This document shows, one piece after another, positions 12,001 through 21,000 of a stretch of DNA of 28,047 nt. The position numbers are program-made. Numbering within the stretch: the first letter of the stretch is position 1; each line of letters starts with the position of its first letter. The DNA comes from Roseibacillus sp. (lineage in GTDB: Bacteria > Verrucomicrobiota > Verrucomicrobiia > Verrucomicrobiales > Akkermansiaceae), in contig CBDEUM010000020.1 in the NCBI GenBank assembly GCA_965242925.1, positions 1-28,047 of the forward strand, given 5' to 3'.

Positions 12001-15000
12001 GTCATCGAAGTCGCCGGGGCCGAGCTGGCTCAGGTCCCCGGGGAAGTACTGCTCCTCGTAGCCGTCGGGGATGCTGTCGCCGTCACTGTCGATATTGGGA
12101 TCGAAGCTGTCGAGGTAGGCCCCCCAGCTCTGGCCGGCGCCGTCGGCGTCAAAGACCGCGGGAGCTCCGCTGCTGATTCCGAAGGCGCCGGCATAGCCGA
12201 TGCCGCCGAAGTCGGCGGTGTTGGAGGAGTTGCCATTGAAGTAGCCAAATCCGATGTCAGCGGCGGACTGGGCGCCGCCCCCGTCCTCGCTGAGCCAGAT
12301 ATCAACGTTGAACCAGCCGCCCCCGCCGAAATTGAAGTTGGCAAAAGTGCGGGCGTTCCAGCTCACATCGGTGTGCTGGGCGGACGCGCCGGTGGCATTC
12401 AGGTTACCGGAGCCGCCGATCGGGGTGGCTACGATCTTGACGCGATCGTCGTAGTTCTCGGTGAAGGAGAAAGTGCCGTCAGCATCATAGAACTGGAAGA
12501 TGAAGGCGAGGTCGTGGTTGTCCCCGGTGAGGTCGATGCCCCCGTTGCCCGGTTCCCGGTCCACATCAAGGGCGGAGATGAGACTGGAGTCGGGGTCGTC
12601 CGGATCCCCGAAGGGGGCGGCCTGATCGGCATTTTCGGGCAACGCCCCGGTGAAATCCGCTCCGGGCAGATTGTCGGTGCGGCGGTAGAGAATCCTTTCC
12701 GGATTGTGGGATGCCAGATCGATCTCCGGACGGGAATTGGGATCGGTGGGATCGAATCCGCCTGCAACCTCGATCCCGTCAGGGATCAAATCGTCGTCAC
12801 TGTCGGGGTCCAGGGGATCGGTGCCGGTGTTGTTGGCGTCAACGAATACACCGGTGCCAGTTTCCACTCCGTCAAGCAGGCCGTCGCCGTCGCTGTCAGG
12901 GTTGCCCGGTTCTGTGCCACCGGCGACTTCCGATCCATCGTTCACACCGTCTCCATCACTATCAGGGTCTTGTGGGTCAGTATCGCGCTCGAACTCCTCC
13001 GCATTGTTCAACCCGTCACTGTCGGGATCTCCGAGGGCTCCGTTAGGCCCGTCCCCGGCACCCGGAGCACTCTCTCCCGCTGTCCCGTCATCGTTATCGT
13101 CCAGGCCATTACCATCTTCCCAGTTGGCGGGAAGGCCGTCCCCGTCCTCGTCGGCCACAACCGCATCCTCCACCTCAATCGCGAAAGCGTAGGTGCGGGG
13201 AAGGTTGGCGTGGCCGAAGCTGTCGAGGGTGTTTCCGACTCCGCCCGCCTCGTCAAAGTTGCCGCTGTTGGCGTGGTCGGTAATACCGAAACTCGTATCG
13301 GTAAGGATGCTGTTCTGGACGCCGGTGGCATTGGTGTTCTGGACACCTGCCGCCACTGTCGCTCCCCCTATTGGAATAGTGAAGGTGTCGTCCGCCCCTC
13401 CAAAGGGCACCTCGGTCTGCACGCCGGGCTCCGTATCAATGGTATCACCGAAGGCCAGGACCGTGTGATTGGCCGGGCCATTGACGATCGTGAGAAAGGG
13501 GAAGACCGGTTGCGTCACACCCTGTGTAGCCGAGTCCGGAGCCGCATTGTATTCCCAGCTCGCGGCACGGTAGGTCCCCTCCGGAAGGAAGACCGTATCG
13601 GTGATGTTGATGTTCTGGCGCATCTGGTTGTTACCGTTGGACTGGGTGTCCTGGACGCCGTTGAGCGCGGTTCCGAAGCCTATCTTGATCGCGCCCGCGT
13701 CGCTCACTAGTGCGACGACGAGACAGGTGGTGAGGAGGGATTGTTTCTTAGACATGGAGCAATAAGGTCATCACAGAAAGCGCTGGCAAAACCGGATTTC
13801 TGACAGGTTGAATGAAAAAGGGGCGACCACTGATCTGGCCACCCCTGGAATGAAATCGATGTTGTTTCCTGTGCGATCGCCGACTTTTACCGGCGGCGGC
13901 GCAGCAGGAAGAATCCACTGAAACCGAGGAGCGCAAGACCGGAAGGCTCGGGGATCAAGTCAACCTCGACCGAAAAGGCATAGGTGCGGGGAAGGTTGGC
14001 GTGCCCGAAGCTATCGAGAGTGTTTCCGACTCCGCCCGCCTCGTCAAAGTTGCCGCTGTTGGCGTGGTCGGTAATACCGAAGCTCGTATCGGTCAGGATG
14101 CTGTTCTGGACGCCGGTCGCATTGGTGTTCTGGACTCCTGCCGCAATCGTTGTTGCCTGGGTGAGGGTGAAGACATTGTTCGCCCCACCAAAGGCCACCC
14201 CACTCTGGATGCCCGGCTCGGTATCGATCGTCGACCCGTATGCAAGCACCGTGTGATTAGCAGGACCGTTCACGGCGGTAAGGAAGGGGAAGACCGGTTG
14301 CGTGACGCTACCATTCCCGGAGTCTGCCCCGGCAAGGTAATCCCATGACGTAGCCTGATAGGTTCCAGGCTGAAGCACTACCGTGTTGGTAATGTTGATG
14401 TTCTGGCGCATCTGGTTGTTGCCGTTGGATTGGGTGTCCTGGACGCCGTTCAATCCGGTTCCGAAACCGATCGTAACAGCTCCAGCGCTCCCAGCGAGAA
14501 CGACGGTAAAACAAGTGCTGAGCAGGGTATGAATTCTCATAAAAGTAACGGGTGCTTCCTCTGAAAAAAAACCAGTTTAAAGACCCAGGGTAAAGCATTT
14601 TCTTCGTGCAAAAGATCCCTGCATCCCGCCATAACTGCCTCCACGTTCCGATTTTTGCCCTTCCTCCGGGATGAACCGATTTGCCCCCACTGCCCTCGCC
14701 CTGCCCCTCTTGCTCTCCGCATGCCGGGATTCAGGGCAGAATACGGCCTCCCCCGTGCAAAACGGCGCCCCCGACGAGCTGCTTCAAGTCATTGTTCATC
14801 CGACCATCCGGCCCGAGCGACCGTCACTCATGCAAACTTCGGCGCTCCTGACAAAAAATACTTCGGAACTGCCTATTACTAAGGCAACCGCCCGGCACAC
14901 CGCTGCCGACCGGGAAGCGGCCAATTTGAGTGCCGAGGCAGCCGGATGGCACTCCGAGACCCGCGCCAGCCTTGCAATGCGACAATTGGGCAAACTGGCT

Positions 15001-18000: not shown

Positions 18001-21000
18001 CCATCCGTGCACAACGACTTCGGCGCGTCCCTGGCACAAAGGGGAAAACTGCGGGAAGGCGCACAGCATTTCCGGGAAGCGCTCCGCCTGAAACCTGACT
18101 TCCCCCTCGCCAGAGAGAATCTATCCAAGGTGGAAGAACTGCTGAAACAAGCGGGTGAACGATGAGAACGTCAGGGTTTTGTGATGAACACCCGCCAGAA
18201 CACAGAGGCGGACATTCTGAGCAGGAAACAACGGATCCTGCTGCCCCGGTTGCAGCCCCTTAAAAATGACAGGAACCCTGTCCCGTCTTCAGGAAACTCC
18301 ACCCCGGTTCCCACCGGGAAATCACTATTGATCGGGCGAACTATCGCGTAGCGTCATTACGCTCCAGCCCACTCACCATCCTCTCGAACAATGAAGATCG
18401 CTCTCATCGTCCTGCCTGTTCTCGTTCTTGCCAGTTCAAACCCTGTGCCCGCCCGCGAAGCCAAGGAACTGGACAACGACATTAACTACGACGACCGAAA
18501 AACCCCGCACTACGACCTGCCTCCTCTTCTCGTCACTACGCAGGGCCGGAAAATAACCACTGCCGAGGAGTGGCGCAGCGTCCGCCGTCCCGAGATTCTT
18601 TCCCTCTTCAGCAACCTGGTCTATGGGAGAATTCCCCAGCCCTCCACTCCCCTGAAGATCGAATTTGAAGTGTCCAGAACCGACTCCGGTTTCATGAAGG
18701 GCCGCGCCACGCGGAAAGACATCAGGATTCATCTCAGCAACAAGAACGGGCGCATGTCGATGCATGTGCTCGTATTCACACCCAACAAGTCGCCCCGACC
18801 CGTTCCATGCTTCCTCAAGCACAGCTTCCAGAACACCCGGGAAGACGATTTTGACGCTGCAATTCTCCGTCCCGGCAAACTGAAGAATGGCTGGCCCCTG
18901 GGAGAGTTCCTTGATCGTGGTTACGGCTTTTGTGCGGTGTATCACGAGGACCTCATCCGCCACAACGAAGTCGAGTTTCTCCACAGCATCCACAAGCTCT
19001 TCTACCCTGCGGGCCAGAGCTTCCCCAAGGCGCATGAGTGGGGTGTCATTTCCACCTGCGCATGGGGGGCTATGCGTGCAATGGACTATCTCGAAACCGA
19101 TCAGGACATCGACCACACCCGCGTGGCGGTGATGGGCCACTCCAAGATGGGAAAGACCGCTCTCTGGACTGCGGCCCAGGATGAACGTTTCGCCCTGGCA
19201 ATATCCGCCCAGTCAGGTTGTGCGGGAGCGGCCCTCTGGCGCCGCAAGTCAGGTGAAACACTCAAGAAGATGGTCACCCGCTTCCCCTACTGGCTCTGCC
19301 GCAACGCGTGGAAGTTCGTCGACCAGGAAGACGATCTTCCCGTGGACCAGCATATGCTCCTGGCCTGCATCGCACCCCGTCCCGTCTACGTGCACAGCAG
19401 CGTGAAAGACACCTGGGCCGACCCCCGGGGCGAATACCTCTCCGCCTACCACGCGGGTGAAGTGTACCGTCTCCTGGGCCAGAAGACGCTCCTGATGGAA
19501 GAACGCTCTCCGCCCGTAGGCAAAGCCTTCATAGAAAGCCAAGTCGGCTACCACCTCCGGGACGGCGGCCATTCCATCGAAAAATACGATTGGGAGCGCT
19601 TCCTGGAATTCGCGGATTTCCATCTGAAGCCAAAGGATCCGTGAGCCCGGACGGAGTCGAGAAATCCCACCACGAACCCCGGTCCCCCGGCAACCATCCC
19701 ATGCCCAGGACACAGGCTCCTCGCTCCGTCCAGCTACAGCAGCCAATCCCAGATGGTTCAATCTGGAGAAAGCCAGCTGCTGAAGGATCATTTCTTCTGG
19801 TCCCGGAGAGGCCCCACCCCTGCAGTCTGCAGACTACGATGGTGCGCAGGGTGCTAAACCCTCTTATTCACATCTCCTGATGGATATTGCCACGCTCGAT
19901 GCGCAATGGGAGCAGTCGAATGAATCTTCTTTCAATAAGCCAGATAATCCTTGCCATTAGCCGACATTGCCCGACCATCCGCGGCGCCGAATGGATGCTA
20001 TTTTGGCTTTGGAAGACGGGCGCGTATTTCGCGGCGAGGGATTCGGTCACTCCGGCACTTCGACGGGCGAGGCATGCTTCAACACCTCCATGACCGGCTA
20101 CCAGGAGATCCTCACCGATCCAAGCTACCGGGGACAGATCGTGGCCATGACGTATCCCCTCATCGGGAATTACGGAGTCAACCCGGAGGACTCCGAATCA
20201 CGACAACCCCATGTGAGAGGCTTCGTGGTGGGAGAACTCTGTCGCACGCCCTCCAATTTCCGCTCCCAGCAGACACTCCAGGATTACCTGAGTGAGCATG
20301 AGATCATCGGTATCGAGGGCATCGACACCCGTGCCTTCACCAAACACCTGCGCTCTGCCGGCGCGATGCGGGCCTGCCTCACAACCGAACTGGAGAAGGA
20401 CGAAGCGATCGAAGCCGCCAAGGCCTCGCCCCCCATGACAGGATCAGACTTTGTCAAGGAAGTCACCACCTCCAAGCCCTTCACCTGGGCGGAAGAATCC
20501 CGCAGGTGGACTGTCCCTAATCCCTCCCATGGGCAGGACGACCACTACCTCCAACTTCCGGAACCGCTTCGCCGCATCGTCGCCTACGACTTCGGAGTGA
20601 AATACAACATCCTTCGGCAACTCCGTCAGCACGGTTTTGAAGTTCAGGTGGTGAGTGCTGGCACCTCCGCCAGCGAGGTTCTCAAACTTAACCCGGATGG
20701 AATCTTCCTGTCCAACGGACCCGGCGACCCGGAAGCGCTCGACTATATCCATGCCGAGGTCAGGGAGCTCATTGGAAAAAAACCGATCTTCGGCATTTGT
20801 CTCGGCCACCAGATCCTTACCCACGCCTTTGGCGGAAAGACATTCAAACTGAAATTCGGGCATCGCGGTGGAAACCAGCCAGTCAAGGATCTCCGCAGCG
20901 GAAGGGTTTCCATCACCTCACAGAACCACGGCTTTGCTACTGATGGGGAATCTCTCCCCTCCTCCGTTGAAATCACCCATGTCAATCTCAACGACGAGAC

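What a model noticed while it worked through the whole genome (the two positions that open the first line are those of the whole stretch)
14671..18165. Expanded family of selenocysteine-containing CRTAC1-like (FG-GAP/UnbV_ASPIC) proteins
Eleven distinct paralogous CRTAC1-like genes (FG-GAP beta-propeller + UnbV_ASPIC, six with a C-terminal ResA/peroxiredoxin-like thioredoxin domain and TPRs; two more near-identical copies on strain-variant contigs) are each called as two genes split by one in-frame TGA at the same motif, DL-[TGA]-SFFWRQVVS, followed by a conserved hairpin with a GGUC loop. I read them as a new, massively expanded bacterial selenoprotein family: exported CRTAC1 homologues with selenocysteine at the N-cap of a helix between propeller and UnbV domain, working in recurring cassettes with PEP-CTERM and thrombospondin-type-3-repeat surface proteins. 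If true this adds a selenoprotein family absent from published li [...]
Evidence so far: Calls 10,11: 12 adjacent gene pairs in one frame joined by a single TGA (C12:49972-52248, C12:88014-92069, C13:130509-134276, C13:146029-148464, C17:48974-50974, C20:14671-18165, C22:98095-101619, C28:2600-6451, C29:916-4476, C30:151498-154281, C30:359184-363140, C34:104572-107034) plus C37:896; the C17 and C37 copies are 98-99% identical to the C12 and C28 ones. Most share TGA AGT TTC TTC TGG CGR CAG GTC GTG TCG C (stem GCGRC/GTCGC around a GGTC loop); variants keep a stem (e.g. GCGCAC-GGTC-GTGCGC). Call 25: of 61 Akkermansiaceae genomes 36 have matches, and every listed match with E<1e-140 (about 57, in 4 genera) has exactly 1 TGA in an otherwise open 900-1400 aa frame; weak matches (other [...]
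(Added by a program. Inside this text positions count along the whole contig: contig position 1 is position 1 of the stretch shown here. "Call 12" and the like, gene names such as g00115 and contig names such as C1 are that model's own, and its searches are not shown. The text may have been shortened before it was handed on; [...] marks where a part breaks off. The agent that wrote the report below was given it as the finding of a first reader that could run no searches.)

Follow-up and report, generated by a model that had tools for sequence, protein, structure and literature searches.

The report
Expanded uncatalogued selenoprotein propeller family
A marine bacterium carries eleven versions of a large exported propeller protein whose apparent mid-gene stop codon is almost certainly read as selenocysteine, a family that databases cut into two genes and that selenoprotein catalogues leave out.

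Summary
Observation confirmed. Window 14671-18165 (+) is one 1164-codon frame with a single in-frame TGA (16543-16545, DL-U-SFFWRQVVS), followed by a 7-bp hairpin with a GGUCG loop. The genome has 13 such sites, 11 of them distinct.

The TGA is almost certainly selenocysteine.
- All 115 strong homologous matches that span the site in 30 related genomes keep exactly one TGA.
- In 116 public loci with the same amino-acid motif, the hairpin codons go with TGA (38/42) and not with sense codons (2/74).
- tRNA-Sec, SelB, Sec-SelD and Sec-FdhA are present. SelA is missing here but found in 11/12 congeners.

The family occurs in Verrucomicrobiota, Planctomycetota and Acidobacteriota, at 4-17 copies per genome in two genera. 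Databases split every copy.

It is absent from the 2026 list of 119 families. However, four such genes appear as "candidates" in a 2016 supplement, and this scan has met the family in at least 8 other genomes.

Non-Sec homologues mostly carry Asn at the site, and Cys is rare. Sec forms co-occur with a nearby Cys (ERN-C) and an intact fused TlpA-like CxxC, or with U-x-C when that domain is missing. This suggests a periplasmic redox relay, which is inferred and not shown. No 3D model could be obtained.

The parts
14671..18165 (+). Whole gene: a 1164-residue CRTAC1-like protein (N-terminal region, FG-GAP propeller, UnbV_ASPIC, thioredoxin-like CxxC region, TPR) with selenocysteine at codon 625. 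Its terminal stop is itself TGA.
   Evidence: Single frame with one internal TGA. Pfam domains. Orthologues at 60-90% identity span both halves with 1 TGA. Terminal stop.
14671..14724 (+). Putative lipoprotein signal peptide, MNRFAPTALALPLLLSAC, with lipobox L-S-A-C.
   Evidence: Read from the translation. Similar lipobox-like N-termini occur in most paralogues. No signal-peptide predictor was run.
15523..16515 (+). FG-GAP beta-propeller repeats with DxDxDG calcium-type loops (about residues 285-615).
   Evidence: PF13517, 5 stretches, 136.7 bits; PF01839, 66.1 bits. Conserved D/G columns. Profile match to solved CRTAC1 9etn_A, E 1.8e-32.
16543..16545 (+). In-frame UGA, read as selenocysteine (U625), inside the most conserved linear motif of the family: D623 L624 U x x x W629 R630 x x V633.
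   Evidence: Invariant UGA-A in 76 distinct sites. Motif conservation.
16556..16574 (+). SECIS-like hairpin: 7-bp stem GGCGGCA/UGUCGCC and loop GGUCG. The invariant G and U of the loop lie at +22/+23 from the U of UGA, and 10 nt separate UGA from the stem.
   Evidence: Fold. Pair counts on 76 sites. Matched control on 116 loci.
16687..16689 (+). Cys673 (motif YERN-C), the candidate resolving cysteine. It is enriched in Sec and Cys forms.
   Evidence: Its spatial closeness to U625 was not tested.
16924..17139 (+). UnbV_ASPIC domain (residues 752-823).
   Evidence: PF07593, 48.2 bits against a cut-off of 23.4.
17371..17382 (+). C901-P-H-C904, the CxxC of a TlpA/ResA-like thioredoxin-fold region.
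   Evidence: Aligns with WCxPC of the paralogues' AhpC-TSA/Redoxin domains. In the window protein itself there are only weak NCBIfam TrbB/TraF-like matches.
18007..18123 (+). C-terminal TPR repeats (weak in this copy).
   Evidence: TPR_11 at 20.5 bits and TPR_2 at 17.2 bits, both under cut-off. They are strong in the paralogues.
13887..14540 (-). Divergent neighbour: a 217-aa PEP-CTERM protein (...IPEPSGLALLGFSGFFLLRRRR).
   Evidence: TIGR02595, 20.1 bits against a cut-off of 16. Conserved next to 3 of 7 orthologous loci.
10441..13755 (-). Neighbour: a 1104-aa bacterial TSP3-repeat protein whose N-terminal domain is 75% identical to the PEP-CTERM protein.
   Evidence: PF18884, 50.3 bits. tblastn. 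Neighbourhood statistics.

Best explanation
Window 14671-18165 is one gene. Its UGA at 16543-16545 is recoded to selenocysteine by the bacterial SelB / tRNA-Sec system. The recoding is directed by the hairpin 10 nt downstream, whose apical loop presents an invariant G-U (GGUC).

The product is a roughly 1160-residue exported, probably lipid-anchored, CRTAC1-like protein: FG-GAP propeller, UnbV_ASPIC domain, TlpA-like thioredoxin fold and TPR. Without selenium or SelB, translation would stop after the propeller.

The gene is one of 11 distinct paralogues in this genome. It belongs to a family spread over Verrucomicrobiota, Planctomycetota and Acidobacteriota that annotation pipelines split into two genes.

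Shown: the conserved UGA, the UGA-linked hairpin, the Sec machinery, and the family's distribution.

Inferred (about 45% on its own): Sec625 is a redox-active selenol in the periplasm. It would be resolved by Cys673 (or by a Cys two residues on in short forms). It would then be recycled by the fused CxxC domain, which in turn would draw electrons from a DsbD/CcdA-type membrane protein.
For: Translation through the UGA
- All 115 matches with E<=8e-53 that span residue 625, in 30 of 101 same-family genomes and at 34-90% identity, carry exactly one TGA (one also a TAG). The three strong matches without a TGA do not reach the site.
- There are 13 sites at one motif in this genome.
- TGA is the ordinary stop of 7 of 15 window genes, and the other 14 genes have no in-frame TGA. 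There is therefore no code change.

Hairpin tied to the UGA
- Among 116 public loci encoding the same DLxSFFWRQVV motif, the six inner pairs are all intact in 38/42 TGA loci and in 2/74 sense-codon loci.
- GGTC lies at +21..24 in 38/42 TGA loci against 8/74 sense loci.
- The first Val codon is GTC in 38/42 against 10/74 (Fisher 7e-17). The second is GTG in 38/42 against 32/74.
- Seven of 8 Acidobacteriota TGA loci are canonical, in the same phylum as most of the controls.
- On 76 distinct sites, UGA-A and the loop G-U are invariant.
- The helix is 82.5% paired, against 27-69% when slid. Pair 21-31 shows GU32/AU22/GC10/UA2/UG2/CG1 and pair 19-33 shows CG64/AU2. The covariation score is 0.145 against 0.085, reached by 0 of 500 shuffles.

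Sec machinery and other selenoproteins
- tRNA-Sec is present, as are SelB at 287.5 bits and SelD at 366.6 bits with its own UGA.
- SelA is over cut-off in 11 of 12 congeners.
- FdhA (TIGR01591, 726 bits) has UGA at the canonical NCSRA-U-HAP site.
- The fdhA and selD hairpins also carry GGUC loops.

Cys homologues
- Cys homologues exist and are among the closest full-length relatives (P0001, P0002, P0004).

Redox inference
- Database C-terminal halves of split genes: of 86 long enough, 84 have CxxC, 72 have ERN-Cys and none has neither.
- Of 67 Asn forms, 3 have CxxC and 1 has ERN-Cys.
- All 11 U-S-C forms lack the thioredoxin domain, whereas 43 of 46 other Sec forms have CxxC or CxxS.
- A DsbD_TM protein is present.
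Against: - There is no direct evidence of selenium in the protein.
- SelA was not found in this 89.9%-complete assembly.
- RNAalifold finds no consensus pair on all 76 sites. On the 63 WRQVV rows it finds only 4 bp.
- Single-sequence folding energies are not better than shuffles (z -0.62 for the window).
- Only 2 of 7 pairs show changes on both sides, and the hairpin lies in strongly conserved coding sequence.
- The covariance model still scores non-Sec sites at up to 37 bits.
- The site is not a conserved Cys. In 116 unbiased loci the sense residues are N 40, A 10, G 7, M 6, S 5, D 3 and C 0. In 120 database proteins, Cys is 6. A catalytic role is therefore not implied by homology.
- Within the Sec-containing clade, Ser, His, Ala, Asp and Gln forms keep the CxxC.
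- Eleven of 37 long Sec forms lack ERN-Cys.
- All the correlations are between relatives and are not corrected for phylogeny.
- No 3D model is available.
Confidence: 0.85

Rival explanations
1. The TGA is a real stop. The locus is either two independent genes (propeller protein and ASPIC/thioredoxin/TPR protein) or a broken gene.
For: Table 11 gives two ORFs. Databases annotate both halves as separate proteins: 120 of 120 listed N-halves end in DL, and 118 of 119 C-halves start after the site. SelA was not found in this assembly.
Against: The same stop at the same codon recurs in 13 copies here and in all 115 strong matches spanning the site elsewhere. No pseudogene decay process would do this.

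The stop sits inside a motif (DLxSFFWRQVV) that is continuous in hundreds of full-length homologues.

The downstream 'gene' usually starts at the GTG inside the hairpin.

The hairpin codons are tied to TGA.
Confidence: 0.03
2. The UGA is read through, but not as selenocysteine. It would be decoded by a near-cognate tRNA (Trp, Cys or Arg) or by local stop suppression, with the hairpin acting as a general read-through stimulator.
For: No selenium evidence exists. The position tolerates many residues in homologues. The hairpin's stability is unremarkable.
Against: The hairpin has the loop shared with the fdhA and selD Sec codons of the same genome. The loop G-U is invariant in 76 sites. The genome keeps tRNA-Sec, SelB and SelD. 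TGA is otherwise an ordinary stop.
Confidence: 0.05
3. Selenocysteine is inserted but has no catalytic role. It is a tolerated residue at a variable helix-start position. The UGA then mainly acts as a selenium-dependent gate that decides whether the C-terminal ASPIC/thioredoxin/TPR half is made.
For: Homologues carry N, A, G, M, S or D at the site. Cys forms are rare: 0 of 116 loci, 6 of 120 proteins, and 0 family hits in the metagenome scan. A truncated propeller product is an automatic consequence of Sec limitation.
Against: Keeping a costly UGA plus SECIS in 4-17 paralogues per genome over three phyla argues for selection on Sec itself.

Sec and Cys forms, but not Asn forms, carry ERN-Cys and an intact CxxC.

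Short forms that lack the thioredoxin domain carry U-x-C.
Confidence: 0.2
4. Sec625 is a ligand for a metal or metalloid (for example Cu, Zn or Hg) at the propeller / ASPIC interface, rather than a redox relay member.
For: Many residues seen at the site can ligate metals: N, D, H, C, M, S, Q. A clade has His at the site with Asp next to it (DLHDYFW). Known selenoproteins use Sec as a metal ligand, for example FdhA in this genome.
Against: Ala and Gly make up 17 of 74 sense-codon loci. No conserved His/Cys cluster accompanies the site in the alignment. The co-occurring residues are cysteines of a thioredoxin fold.
Confidence: 0.12

Closest known systems
Bacterial SelB/SECIS-dependent selenoprotein genes (archetype E. 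coli fdhF; in this genome FdhA at C22:63568 and SelD at C14:573883)
   Same: An in-frame UGA is followed within the ORF by a stem-loop whose apical loop carries G-U (GGUC). The spacing matches this genome's fdhA (loop at +21/+22). The genome holds tRNA-Sec, SelB and SelD. The E. coli details (loop G23/U24, 11-nt spacing) are recalled and were not tested.
   Different: The protein is an exported FG-GAP propeller, not a cytoplasmic oxidoreductase. Sec is outside any thioredoxin fold or metal-cofactor site. Homologues mostly carry Asn, not Cys. There are up to 17 paralogues per genome.
'Selenoprotein gene candidates' with ASPIC/UnbV and FG-GAP domains in planctomycetes P1 and P2 (Kim et al. 2016, PLoS One, PMC4807772, Table S9; supplement read)
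   Same: The same domain content. Each is annotated as two adjacent genes. bSECISearch found a SECIS in 3 of 4. The aligned residue in the nearest full-length hit is not Cys (Gly).
   Different: They are listed only as candidates in a supplement. The paper gives no motif, no comparative evidence and no family definition, and the listing was not taken up by later catalogues.
CRTAC1 / ASPIC-UnbV family (solved: 9etn_A, cartilage acidic protein 1)
   Same: FG-GAP repeats plus the UnbV_ASPIC domain. Profile match E 1.8e-32, and single-sequence match 5.7e-16.
   Different: The alignment with 9etn is piecewise and does not cover the Sec motif. The bacterial proteins add a roughly 270-residue N-terminal region, the Sec-bearing insert, a thioredoxin-like domain and TPRs.
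TlpA/ResA/CcmG-type periplasmic thiol-disulfide oxidoreductases, and catalogued Sec forms of that fold (e.g. [quoted passage not shown]
   Same: A fused AhpC-TSA/Redoxin domain with W-C-x-P-C in the paralogues. A DsbD_TM-type partner is present in the genome.
   Different: In the catalogued families, Sec replaces a Cys of the CxxC itself. Here the CxxC stays all-Cys, and Sec lies about 275 residues upstream on the propeller.

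Membership tests
Bacterial selenoprotein gene (SelB/SECIS recoding) | In-frame UGA conserved at one position among orthologues and paralogues, with conserved coding sequence on both sides | tested here: met
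   13 sites in G000. All 115 strong matches that span the site have 1 TGA. All 20 low-scoring same-family hits that were fetched also carry TGA.
Bacterial selenoprotein gene (SelB/SECIS recoding) | Stem-loop just downstream of UGA with conserved apical G-U, under selection at RNA level | tested here: met
   The matched codon control gives 38/42 against 2/74. The loop G-U is invariant, and pair types are counted. Against this, RNAalifold finds no consensus on all rows and energies are not better than shuffles.
Bacterial selenoprotein gene (SelB/SECIS recoding) | Genome encodes tRNA-Sec, SelB, SelD and SelA | tested here: inconclusive
   tRNA-Sec, SelB and SelD are present. SelA is not found in this 89.9%-complete assembly, but is over cut-off in 11 of 12 congeners.
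Bacterial selenoprotein gene (SelB/SECIS recoding) | Cys-containing homologues at the Sec position | tested here: met
   6 of 120 full-length database homologues have Cys, three of them among the closest. They are rare: 0 of 116 loci and 0 family hits in the metagenome pattern scan.
Bacterial selenoprotein gene (SelB/SECIS recoding) | Selenium shown in the protein (75Se labelling or mass spectrometry) | not testable with these tools
   Contigs from RNA libraries cover parts of the stretch only, and none bridges the UGA by 31 nt on both sides.
Any of the 119 catalogued prokaryotic selenoprotein families (PMC13188914, Table 1) | Domain ID or NCBIfam selenoprotein model matching the protein | tested here: not met
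   The table was read in full and contains no PF13517, PF01839 or PF07593. The NCBIfam scan of the read-through protein gives only weak TPR and TrbB matches.
CRTAC1 / ASPIC-UnbV FG-GAP proteins | FG-GAP repeats and the UnbV_ASPIC domain over Pfam cut-offs | tested here: met
   for the window protein. for all 10 other paralogues.
CRTAC1 / ASPIC-UnbV FG-GAP proteins | Propeller fold like solved CRTAC1 | not tested
   Only sequence matches to 9etn_A were obtained.
TlpA/ResA-like thioredoxin fold (AhpC-TSA/Redoxin) | Pfam AhpC-TSA or Redoxin over cut-off | tested here: inconclusive
   The window protein has no Pfam match at E<=0.01, only TrbB at 20.5 bits against a cut-off of 132. Among the paralogues, 5 are over cut-off (L160, L163-L166) and 2 are under (L157, L158).
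TlpA/ResA-like thioredoxin fold (AhpC-TSA/Redoxin) | CxxC active-site motif at the aligned position | tested here: met
   CPHC at 901-904 aligns with WCxPC of the paralogues.
Bacterial lipoprotein | Signal peptide ending in a lipobox Cys | not tested
   L-S-A-C at residues 15-18 was read by eye. Similar ends occur in the paralogues. No predictor was run.

The most novel reading that the evidence does not exclude
These proteins are a new class of periplasmic or surface selenoenzyme. In this reading, a selenocysteine on an insert of a calcium-binding beta-propeller forms a three-station redox relay: Sec625, then a blade Cys (or a Cys at U+2), then a fused TlpA-like CxxC fed by DsbD/CcdA.

With 4-17 paralogues per genome, they would be the dominant selenoproteins of marine Verrucomicrobiota and Planctomycetota. 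They would therefore represent a large, uncounted selenium demand in the ocean.
Probability: 0.35. Interest if true: 0.8.

Novelty: new member of a known kind. Interest (0 to 1): 0.65.

Why it matters
Annotation. Every copy in public databases is cut into a 'VCBS/FG-GAP repeat protein' and an 'ASPIC/UnbV domain protein'. There were 3926 N-half and 1921 C-half clusters at E<=1e-10. All 120 listed N-halves end at the same DL, and 118 of 119 listed C-halves start after the site.

Selenoproteomes. In this genome the family supplies 11 of the 13 selenoprotein genes I could find, the others being FdhA and SelD. Homology-based resources such as BSepDB cannot contain it. Selenium use by marine PVC bacteria is therefore under-counted.

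Biochemistry. Sec on an exported propeller, with Asn rather than Cys in most homologues, breaks the usual Sec/Cys-pair rule used by discovery pipelines. It also offers a natural series (U, C, S, H, N) for asking what Sec adds.

Tried and rejected
- Rfam, at gathering threshold over the whole window and at E<=10 around the site: no relevant family.
- RNAalifold on all 76 sites: no consensus structure.
- Single-sequence energies against shuffles: not significant for the window, fdhA, selD or the variants. I therefore did not use stability as evidence.
- Phylum-wide sample of 150 genomes with the RNA model: only two weak hits at about 23 bits, not counted as family members.
- The RNA model on non-Sec loci scores up to 37 bits. 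The model alone does not certify a TGA, and the copy numbers for the five genomes were not checked codon by codon.
- Alignment to solved CRTAC1 (9etn) is piecewise and does not map the Sec site.
There is therefore no 3D evidence for or against the relay, or for the 'helix N-cap'.
- Sequencing runs: the stretch is held by 20 runs of 12 studies, all marine or seawater. An independent DNA run keeps the TGA. Contigs from RNA libraries cover 16231-16550 and 16521-16572, but none bridges the codon by 31 nt on both sides, so transcription is only hinted at.
- Metagenome scan for Cys forms of the exact motif: 2 hits, both an unrelated WDLCCFFWRQVVQV protein.
- The first MAFFT run timed out and was repeated with faster settings.
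- Pseudogene, two-gene and genetic-code-change readings were rejected (see the rival explanations).

Full report
WHAT IS IN THE WINDOW

Window 14671-18165 (+) reads as a single frame of 1164 codons. It has one internal stop, TGA at 16543-16545 (codon 625), in the context ...NGYLSSPSTEDL-*-SFFWRQVVSPSP. Read through, the protein has:
- FG-GAP_3 (136.7 bits) and FG-GAP (66.1 bits);
- UnbV_ASPIC (48.2 bits, residues 752-823);
- weak C-terminal TPRs;
- a CPHC motif at 901-904 that aligns with the WCxPC of the AhpC-TSA/Redoxin domains of its paralogues.

Its N-terminus, MNRFAPTALALPLLLSAC, looks like a lipoprotein signal. I read this by eye and ran no predictor.

THE COPIES IN THE GENOME

The assembly is 4.58 Mb in 42 contigs, 60% G+C and 89.9% complete. 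It holds 13 sites with TGA at the same motif. A covariance model built from the site finds exactly these 13. Two are near-identical duplicates on other contigs (98.7% and 99.3%), which leaves 11 distinct genes.

All 11 have FG-GAP plus UnbV_ASPIC. By alignment, nine have the thioredoxin-like region: eight with CxxC and one with CPVS. Two short forms (C13:146637, C34:106360) end after UnbV_ASPIC. Most start with lipobox-like signals.

THE UGA IS TRANSLATED

I searched 101 genomes of the same family, and 30 have matches. All 115 matches with E<=8e-53 that span residue 625, at 34-90% identity, carry exactly one TGA (one also a TAG). The three strong matches without a TGA end before the site or start after it.

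TGA is the normal stop of 7 of 15 genes in the window, including this gene's own end. None of the other 14 genes has an in-frame TGA, so the code is standard.

A stop fixed at one codon of a motif that is continuous in hundreds of full-length homologues fits neither decay nor two independent genes.

THE HAIRPIN

Ten nucleotides after the UGA lies GGCGGCA-GGUCG-UGUCGCC (16556-16574).

The amino-acid motif WRQVVS is itself conserved, so I made a matched control. The site codon was:
- TGA in 42;
- Asn 40, Ala 10, Gly 7, Met 6, Ser 5, Asp 3;
- Phe, Tyr and Arg 1 each;
- Cys 0.

The hairpin features go with TGA:

| Feature | TGA loci | Sense-codon loci |
|---|---|---|
| Six inner pairs all intact | 38/42 | 2/74 |
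| GGTC at +21..24 | 38/42 | 8/74 |
| First Val codon is GTC | 38/42 | 10/74 |
| Second Val codon is GTG | 38/42 | 32/74 |
| Next codon | NCG | GCN |

Further points:
- Two of the four exceptions (L059, L147) form a shifted stem, GGCGAC/GUCGCC.
- Seven of eight Acidobacteriota TGA loci are canonical, in the phylum that supplies most of the controls.
- On 76 distinct sites aligned without gaps, UGA-A, UGG and the loop G-U are invariant.
- The helix is 82.5% paired, against 27-69% when slid.
- Pair 21-31 occurs as GU 32, AU 22, GC 10, UA 2, UG 2 and CG 1. Pair 19-33 occurs as CG 64 and AU 2.
- No shuffle out of 500 reaches the covariation score.

Against this:
- RNAalifold gives no consensus pair on all 76 rows. 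It gives 4 bp on the 63 WRQVV rows and 7 bp on the 5 WR[TAS]VV rows.
- Folding energies do not beat shuffles.
- The model still scores non-Sec sites at 5.5-37.4 bits.

The case for the hairpin therefore rests on the codon control and the invariant loop, not on stability.

SEC MACHINERY

- tRNA-Sec is at C30:304340-304433.
- SelB scores 287.5 bits.
- SelD scores 366.6 bits and has its own UGA.
- SelA was not found here, but is over cut-off in 11 of 12 genomes of the same genus. The miss is a 70%-complete genome. An assembly gap is the likely reason.
- A crude scan for TGA plus a GGU-loop hairpin recovered an FdhA gene (TIGR01591, 726 bits) with UGA at NCSRA-U-HAPTVAGL.
- The fdhA loop (GGUCU, at +22) and the selD loop (GGUCC, at +36) share GGUC with the family's loop.

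DISTRIBUTION AND EXPANSION

By record titles, the 42 TGA loci come from Verrucomicrobiota (15), Planctomycetota (17), Acidobacteriota (8), one Flavobacteriaceae-labelled MAG and one unlabelled MAG.

RNA-model hits per genome in the same family were as follows:
- the window's genus: 13, 6, 4, 14, 4, 11, 17, 5, 10, 4;
- a second genus: 6, 7, 6, 2, 3, 13, 8, 8, 4;
- other genera: 1-2.

All 20 low-scoring hits that I fetched carry the TGA. A Pirellulaceae MAG has 13 hits and two Planctomycetales MAGs have 7 each, but the codons there were not checked. A phylum-wide sample outside these genera gave nothing credible.

In the protein database:
- the N-terminal ORF finds 3926 clusters at E<=1e-10, and all 120 listed end in 'DL';
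- the C-terminal part finds 1921, and 118 of the 119 listed begin after the site, mostly at the GTG inside the hairpin;
- the names given are 'hypothetical', 'VCBS repeat-containing', 'FG-GAP repeat domain-containing', 'ASPIC/UnbV domain-containing' and 'redoxin domain-containing'.

WHAT STANDS AT THE SITE ELSEWHERE

Among 120 full-length database homologues, found with C at the site in the query, the residue is N 66, A 18, S 16, G 7, C 6, H 5, D 1 and Q 1.

I built a FastTree of 68 sequences, midpoint-rooted, with the site column removed and support values not inspected. It puts the long Sec forms in one clade, interleaved with Cys, Ser, His, Asp, Ala and Gln forms. Asn forms make a separate clade, and short Sec forms branch deepest.

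Cys forms of the exact motif were not found in the metagenome collection. Sec therefore far outnumbers Cys, and the usual 'Sec replaces a conserved catalytic Cys' picture does not apply.

A REDOX READING (INFERENCE)

Three features travel with Sec.

1. An intact CxxC in the fused thioredoxin-like domain. It is present in 84 of 86 database C-halves that are long enough and in 41 of 46 same-family Sec genes without U-x-C, with two more carrying CxxS. Only 3 of 67 Asn forms have it; these mostly have S/AxxC.
2. A Cys right after the conserved ERN, 48 residues downstream (C673). It is present in 72 of 86 C-halves and in 26 of 37 long same-family forms, against 1 of 67 Asn forms.
3. A Cys two residues after Sec. 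All 11 Sec genes with U-S-C have only 201-234 residues after the site and no thioredoxin domain.

A DsbD_TM protein is encoded in the genome.

This fits a selenol that is resolved by a nearby thiol and recycled by a TlpA-like domain in the periplasm. Several cautions apply:
- The counts are among relatives and are not corrected for phylogeny.
- Ser, His and Ala forms in the Sec clade keep the CxxC.
- No 3D model could be made.

SURROUNDINGS

Divergently upstream lie a 217-aa PEP-CTERM protein (13887-14540; TIGR02595, 20.1 bits against a cut-off of 16) and a 1104-aa TSP3-repeat protein (10441-13755). The two share a 75%-identical N-terminal domain. This pair is kept beside 3 of 7 orthologous loci.

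TSP3-type relatives lie within 8 kb of 7 of 11 Sec loci, against a random expectation of 1.5 (P about 4e-4). The same is true of 6 of 11 non-Sec CRTAC1-like paralogues. Downstream is a glucuronyl-esterase-like gene. The rest of the window is housekeeping.

LITERATURE

Full-text searches gave nothing relevant for selenoprotein or selenocysteine combined with FG-GAP, ASPIC, VCBS or propeller.

The 2026 review PMC13188914 lists 119 families. I read Table 1 in full, and none has these domains.

The following have no mention of FG-GAP, ASPIC, CRTAC1, VCBS or propeller:
- deep-Sep (PMC12013277), main text and 4 held supplements;
- BSepDB (PMC13326102), main text and one held supplement, which may be cut;
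- the 2022 review (PMC9312934), main text;
- the GOS 2008 paper (PMC2398784), main text;
- the Sargasso 2005 paper (PMC1088965), main text.

The exception is Kim et al. 2016 (PMC4807772). Its Table S9 lists four such split genes of two planctomycetes as candidates. The scan has met the family on at least 8 other genomes.

VERDICT

This is a new, uncatalogued but previously glimpsed member of the known kind 'bacterial selenoprotein'. It is unusual for its fold, its export, its rarity of Cys homologues and its copy number. What Sec does there remains open. The redox relay is my best guess, at about 45%.

Noticed in passing
G000:C22:63568 (locus L190:1569-1571), outside the window: A formate dehydrogenase alpha gene (TIGR01591, 726 bits) has an in-frame TGA at NCSRA-U-HAPTVAGL, followed by the hairpin GUCGCC-GGUCU-GGCGGC. 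It is a second selenoprotein class in this genome.
   Followed up: yes
G000:C14:573883 (locus L009:1531-1533), outside the window: SelD is itself a selenoprotein (SSCAG-U-ASK). Its hairpin GCGCA-GGUCC-UGCGC puts the GGUC loop at +36, 15 nt further from the UGA than in the propeller genes.
   Followed up: partly
window 10441-13755 (-) and 13887-14540 (-): The 1104-aa TSP3 protein carries the 217-aa PEP-CTERM protein's N-terminal domain twice (residues 1-196 and 671-847, 73-75% identity). Its C-terminal roughly 250 residues recur in 43 clusters across the genome.
   Followed up: partly
window 11170-13710 (+): An 846-codon ORF lies antisense to the TSP3 gene and has no Pfam match. It is probably a spurious long ORF of this G+C-rich DNA.
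   Followed up: no
window 22150-23259 (+) versus 21192-22460 (+): The longest uppS ORF overlaps purA by about 310 nt. The Prenyltransf match starts at residue 147, so the true start is probably much later.
   Followed up: no
L147 (record labelled Flavobacteriaceae MAG): A TGA form of the family, with the shifted hairpin, sits on a contig binned as Flavobacteriaceae. This is either a binning error or a transfer outside the three main phyla.
   Followed up: no
L080, L192, L193: An unrelated protein (WDL[F/C]CFFWRQVV[E/Q]V...), seen in one record labelled Buttiauxella (L080) and in two metagenome contigs, shares the FFWRQVV heptapeptide by chance. It pollutes motif scans.
   Followed up: partly
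window 16567 (GTG) and database proteins P0241-P0359: Gene callers start the downstream 'gene' at the GTG that forms part of the hairpin (products begin M/VSPSP...). The annotated start codon of the C-terminal half is therefore an artefact of the SECIS.
   Followed up: yes
window 18391-19644 (+): A glucuronyl-esterase-like gene (PF22244, 107.5 bits) lies directly downstream on the same strand. It is kept next to the closest orthologue (L012) only.
   Followed up: partly
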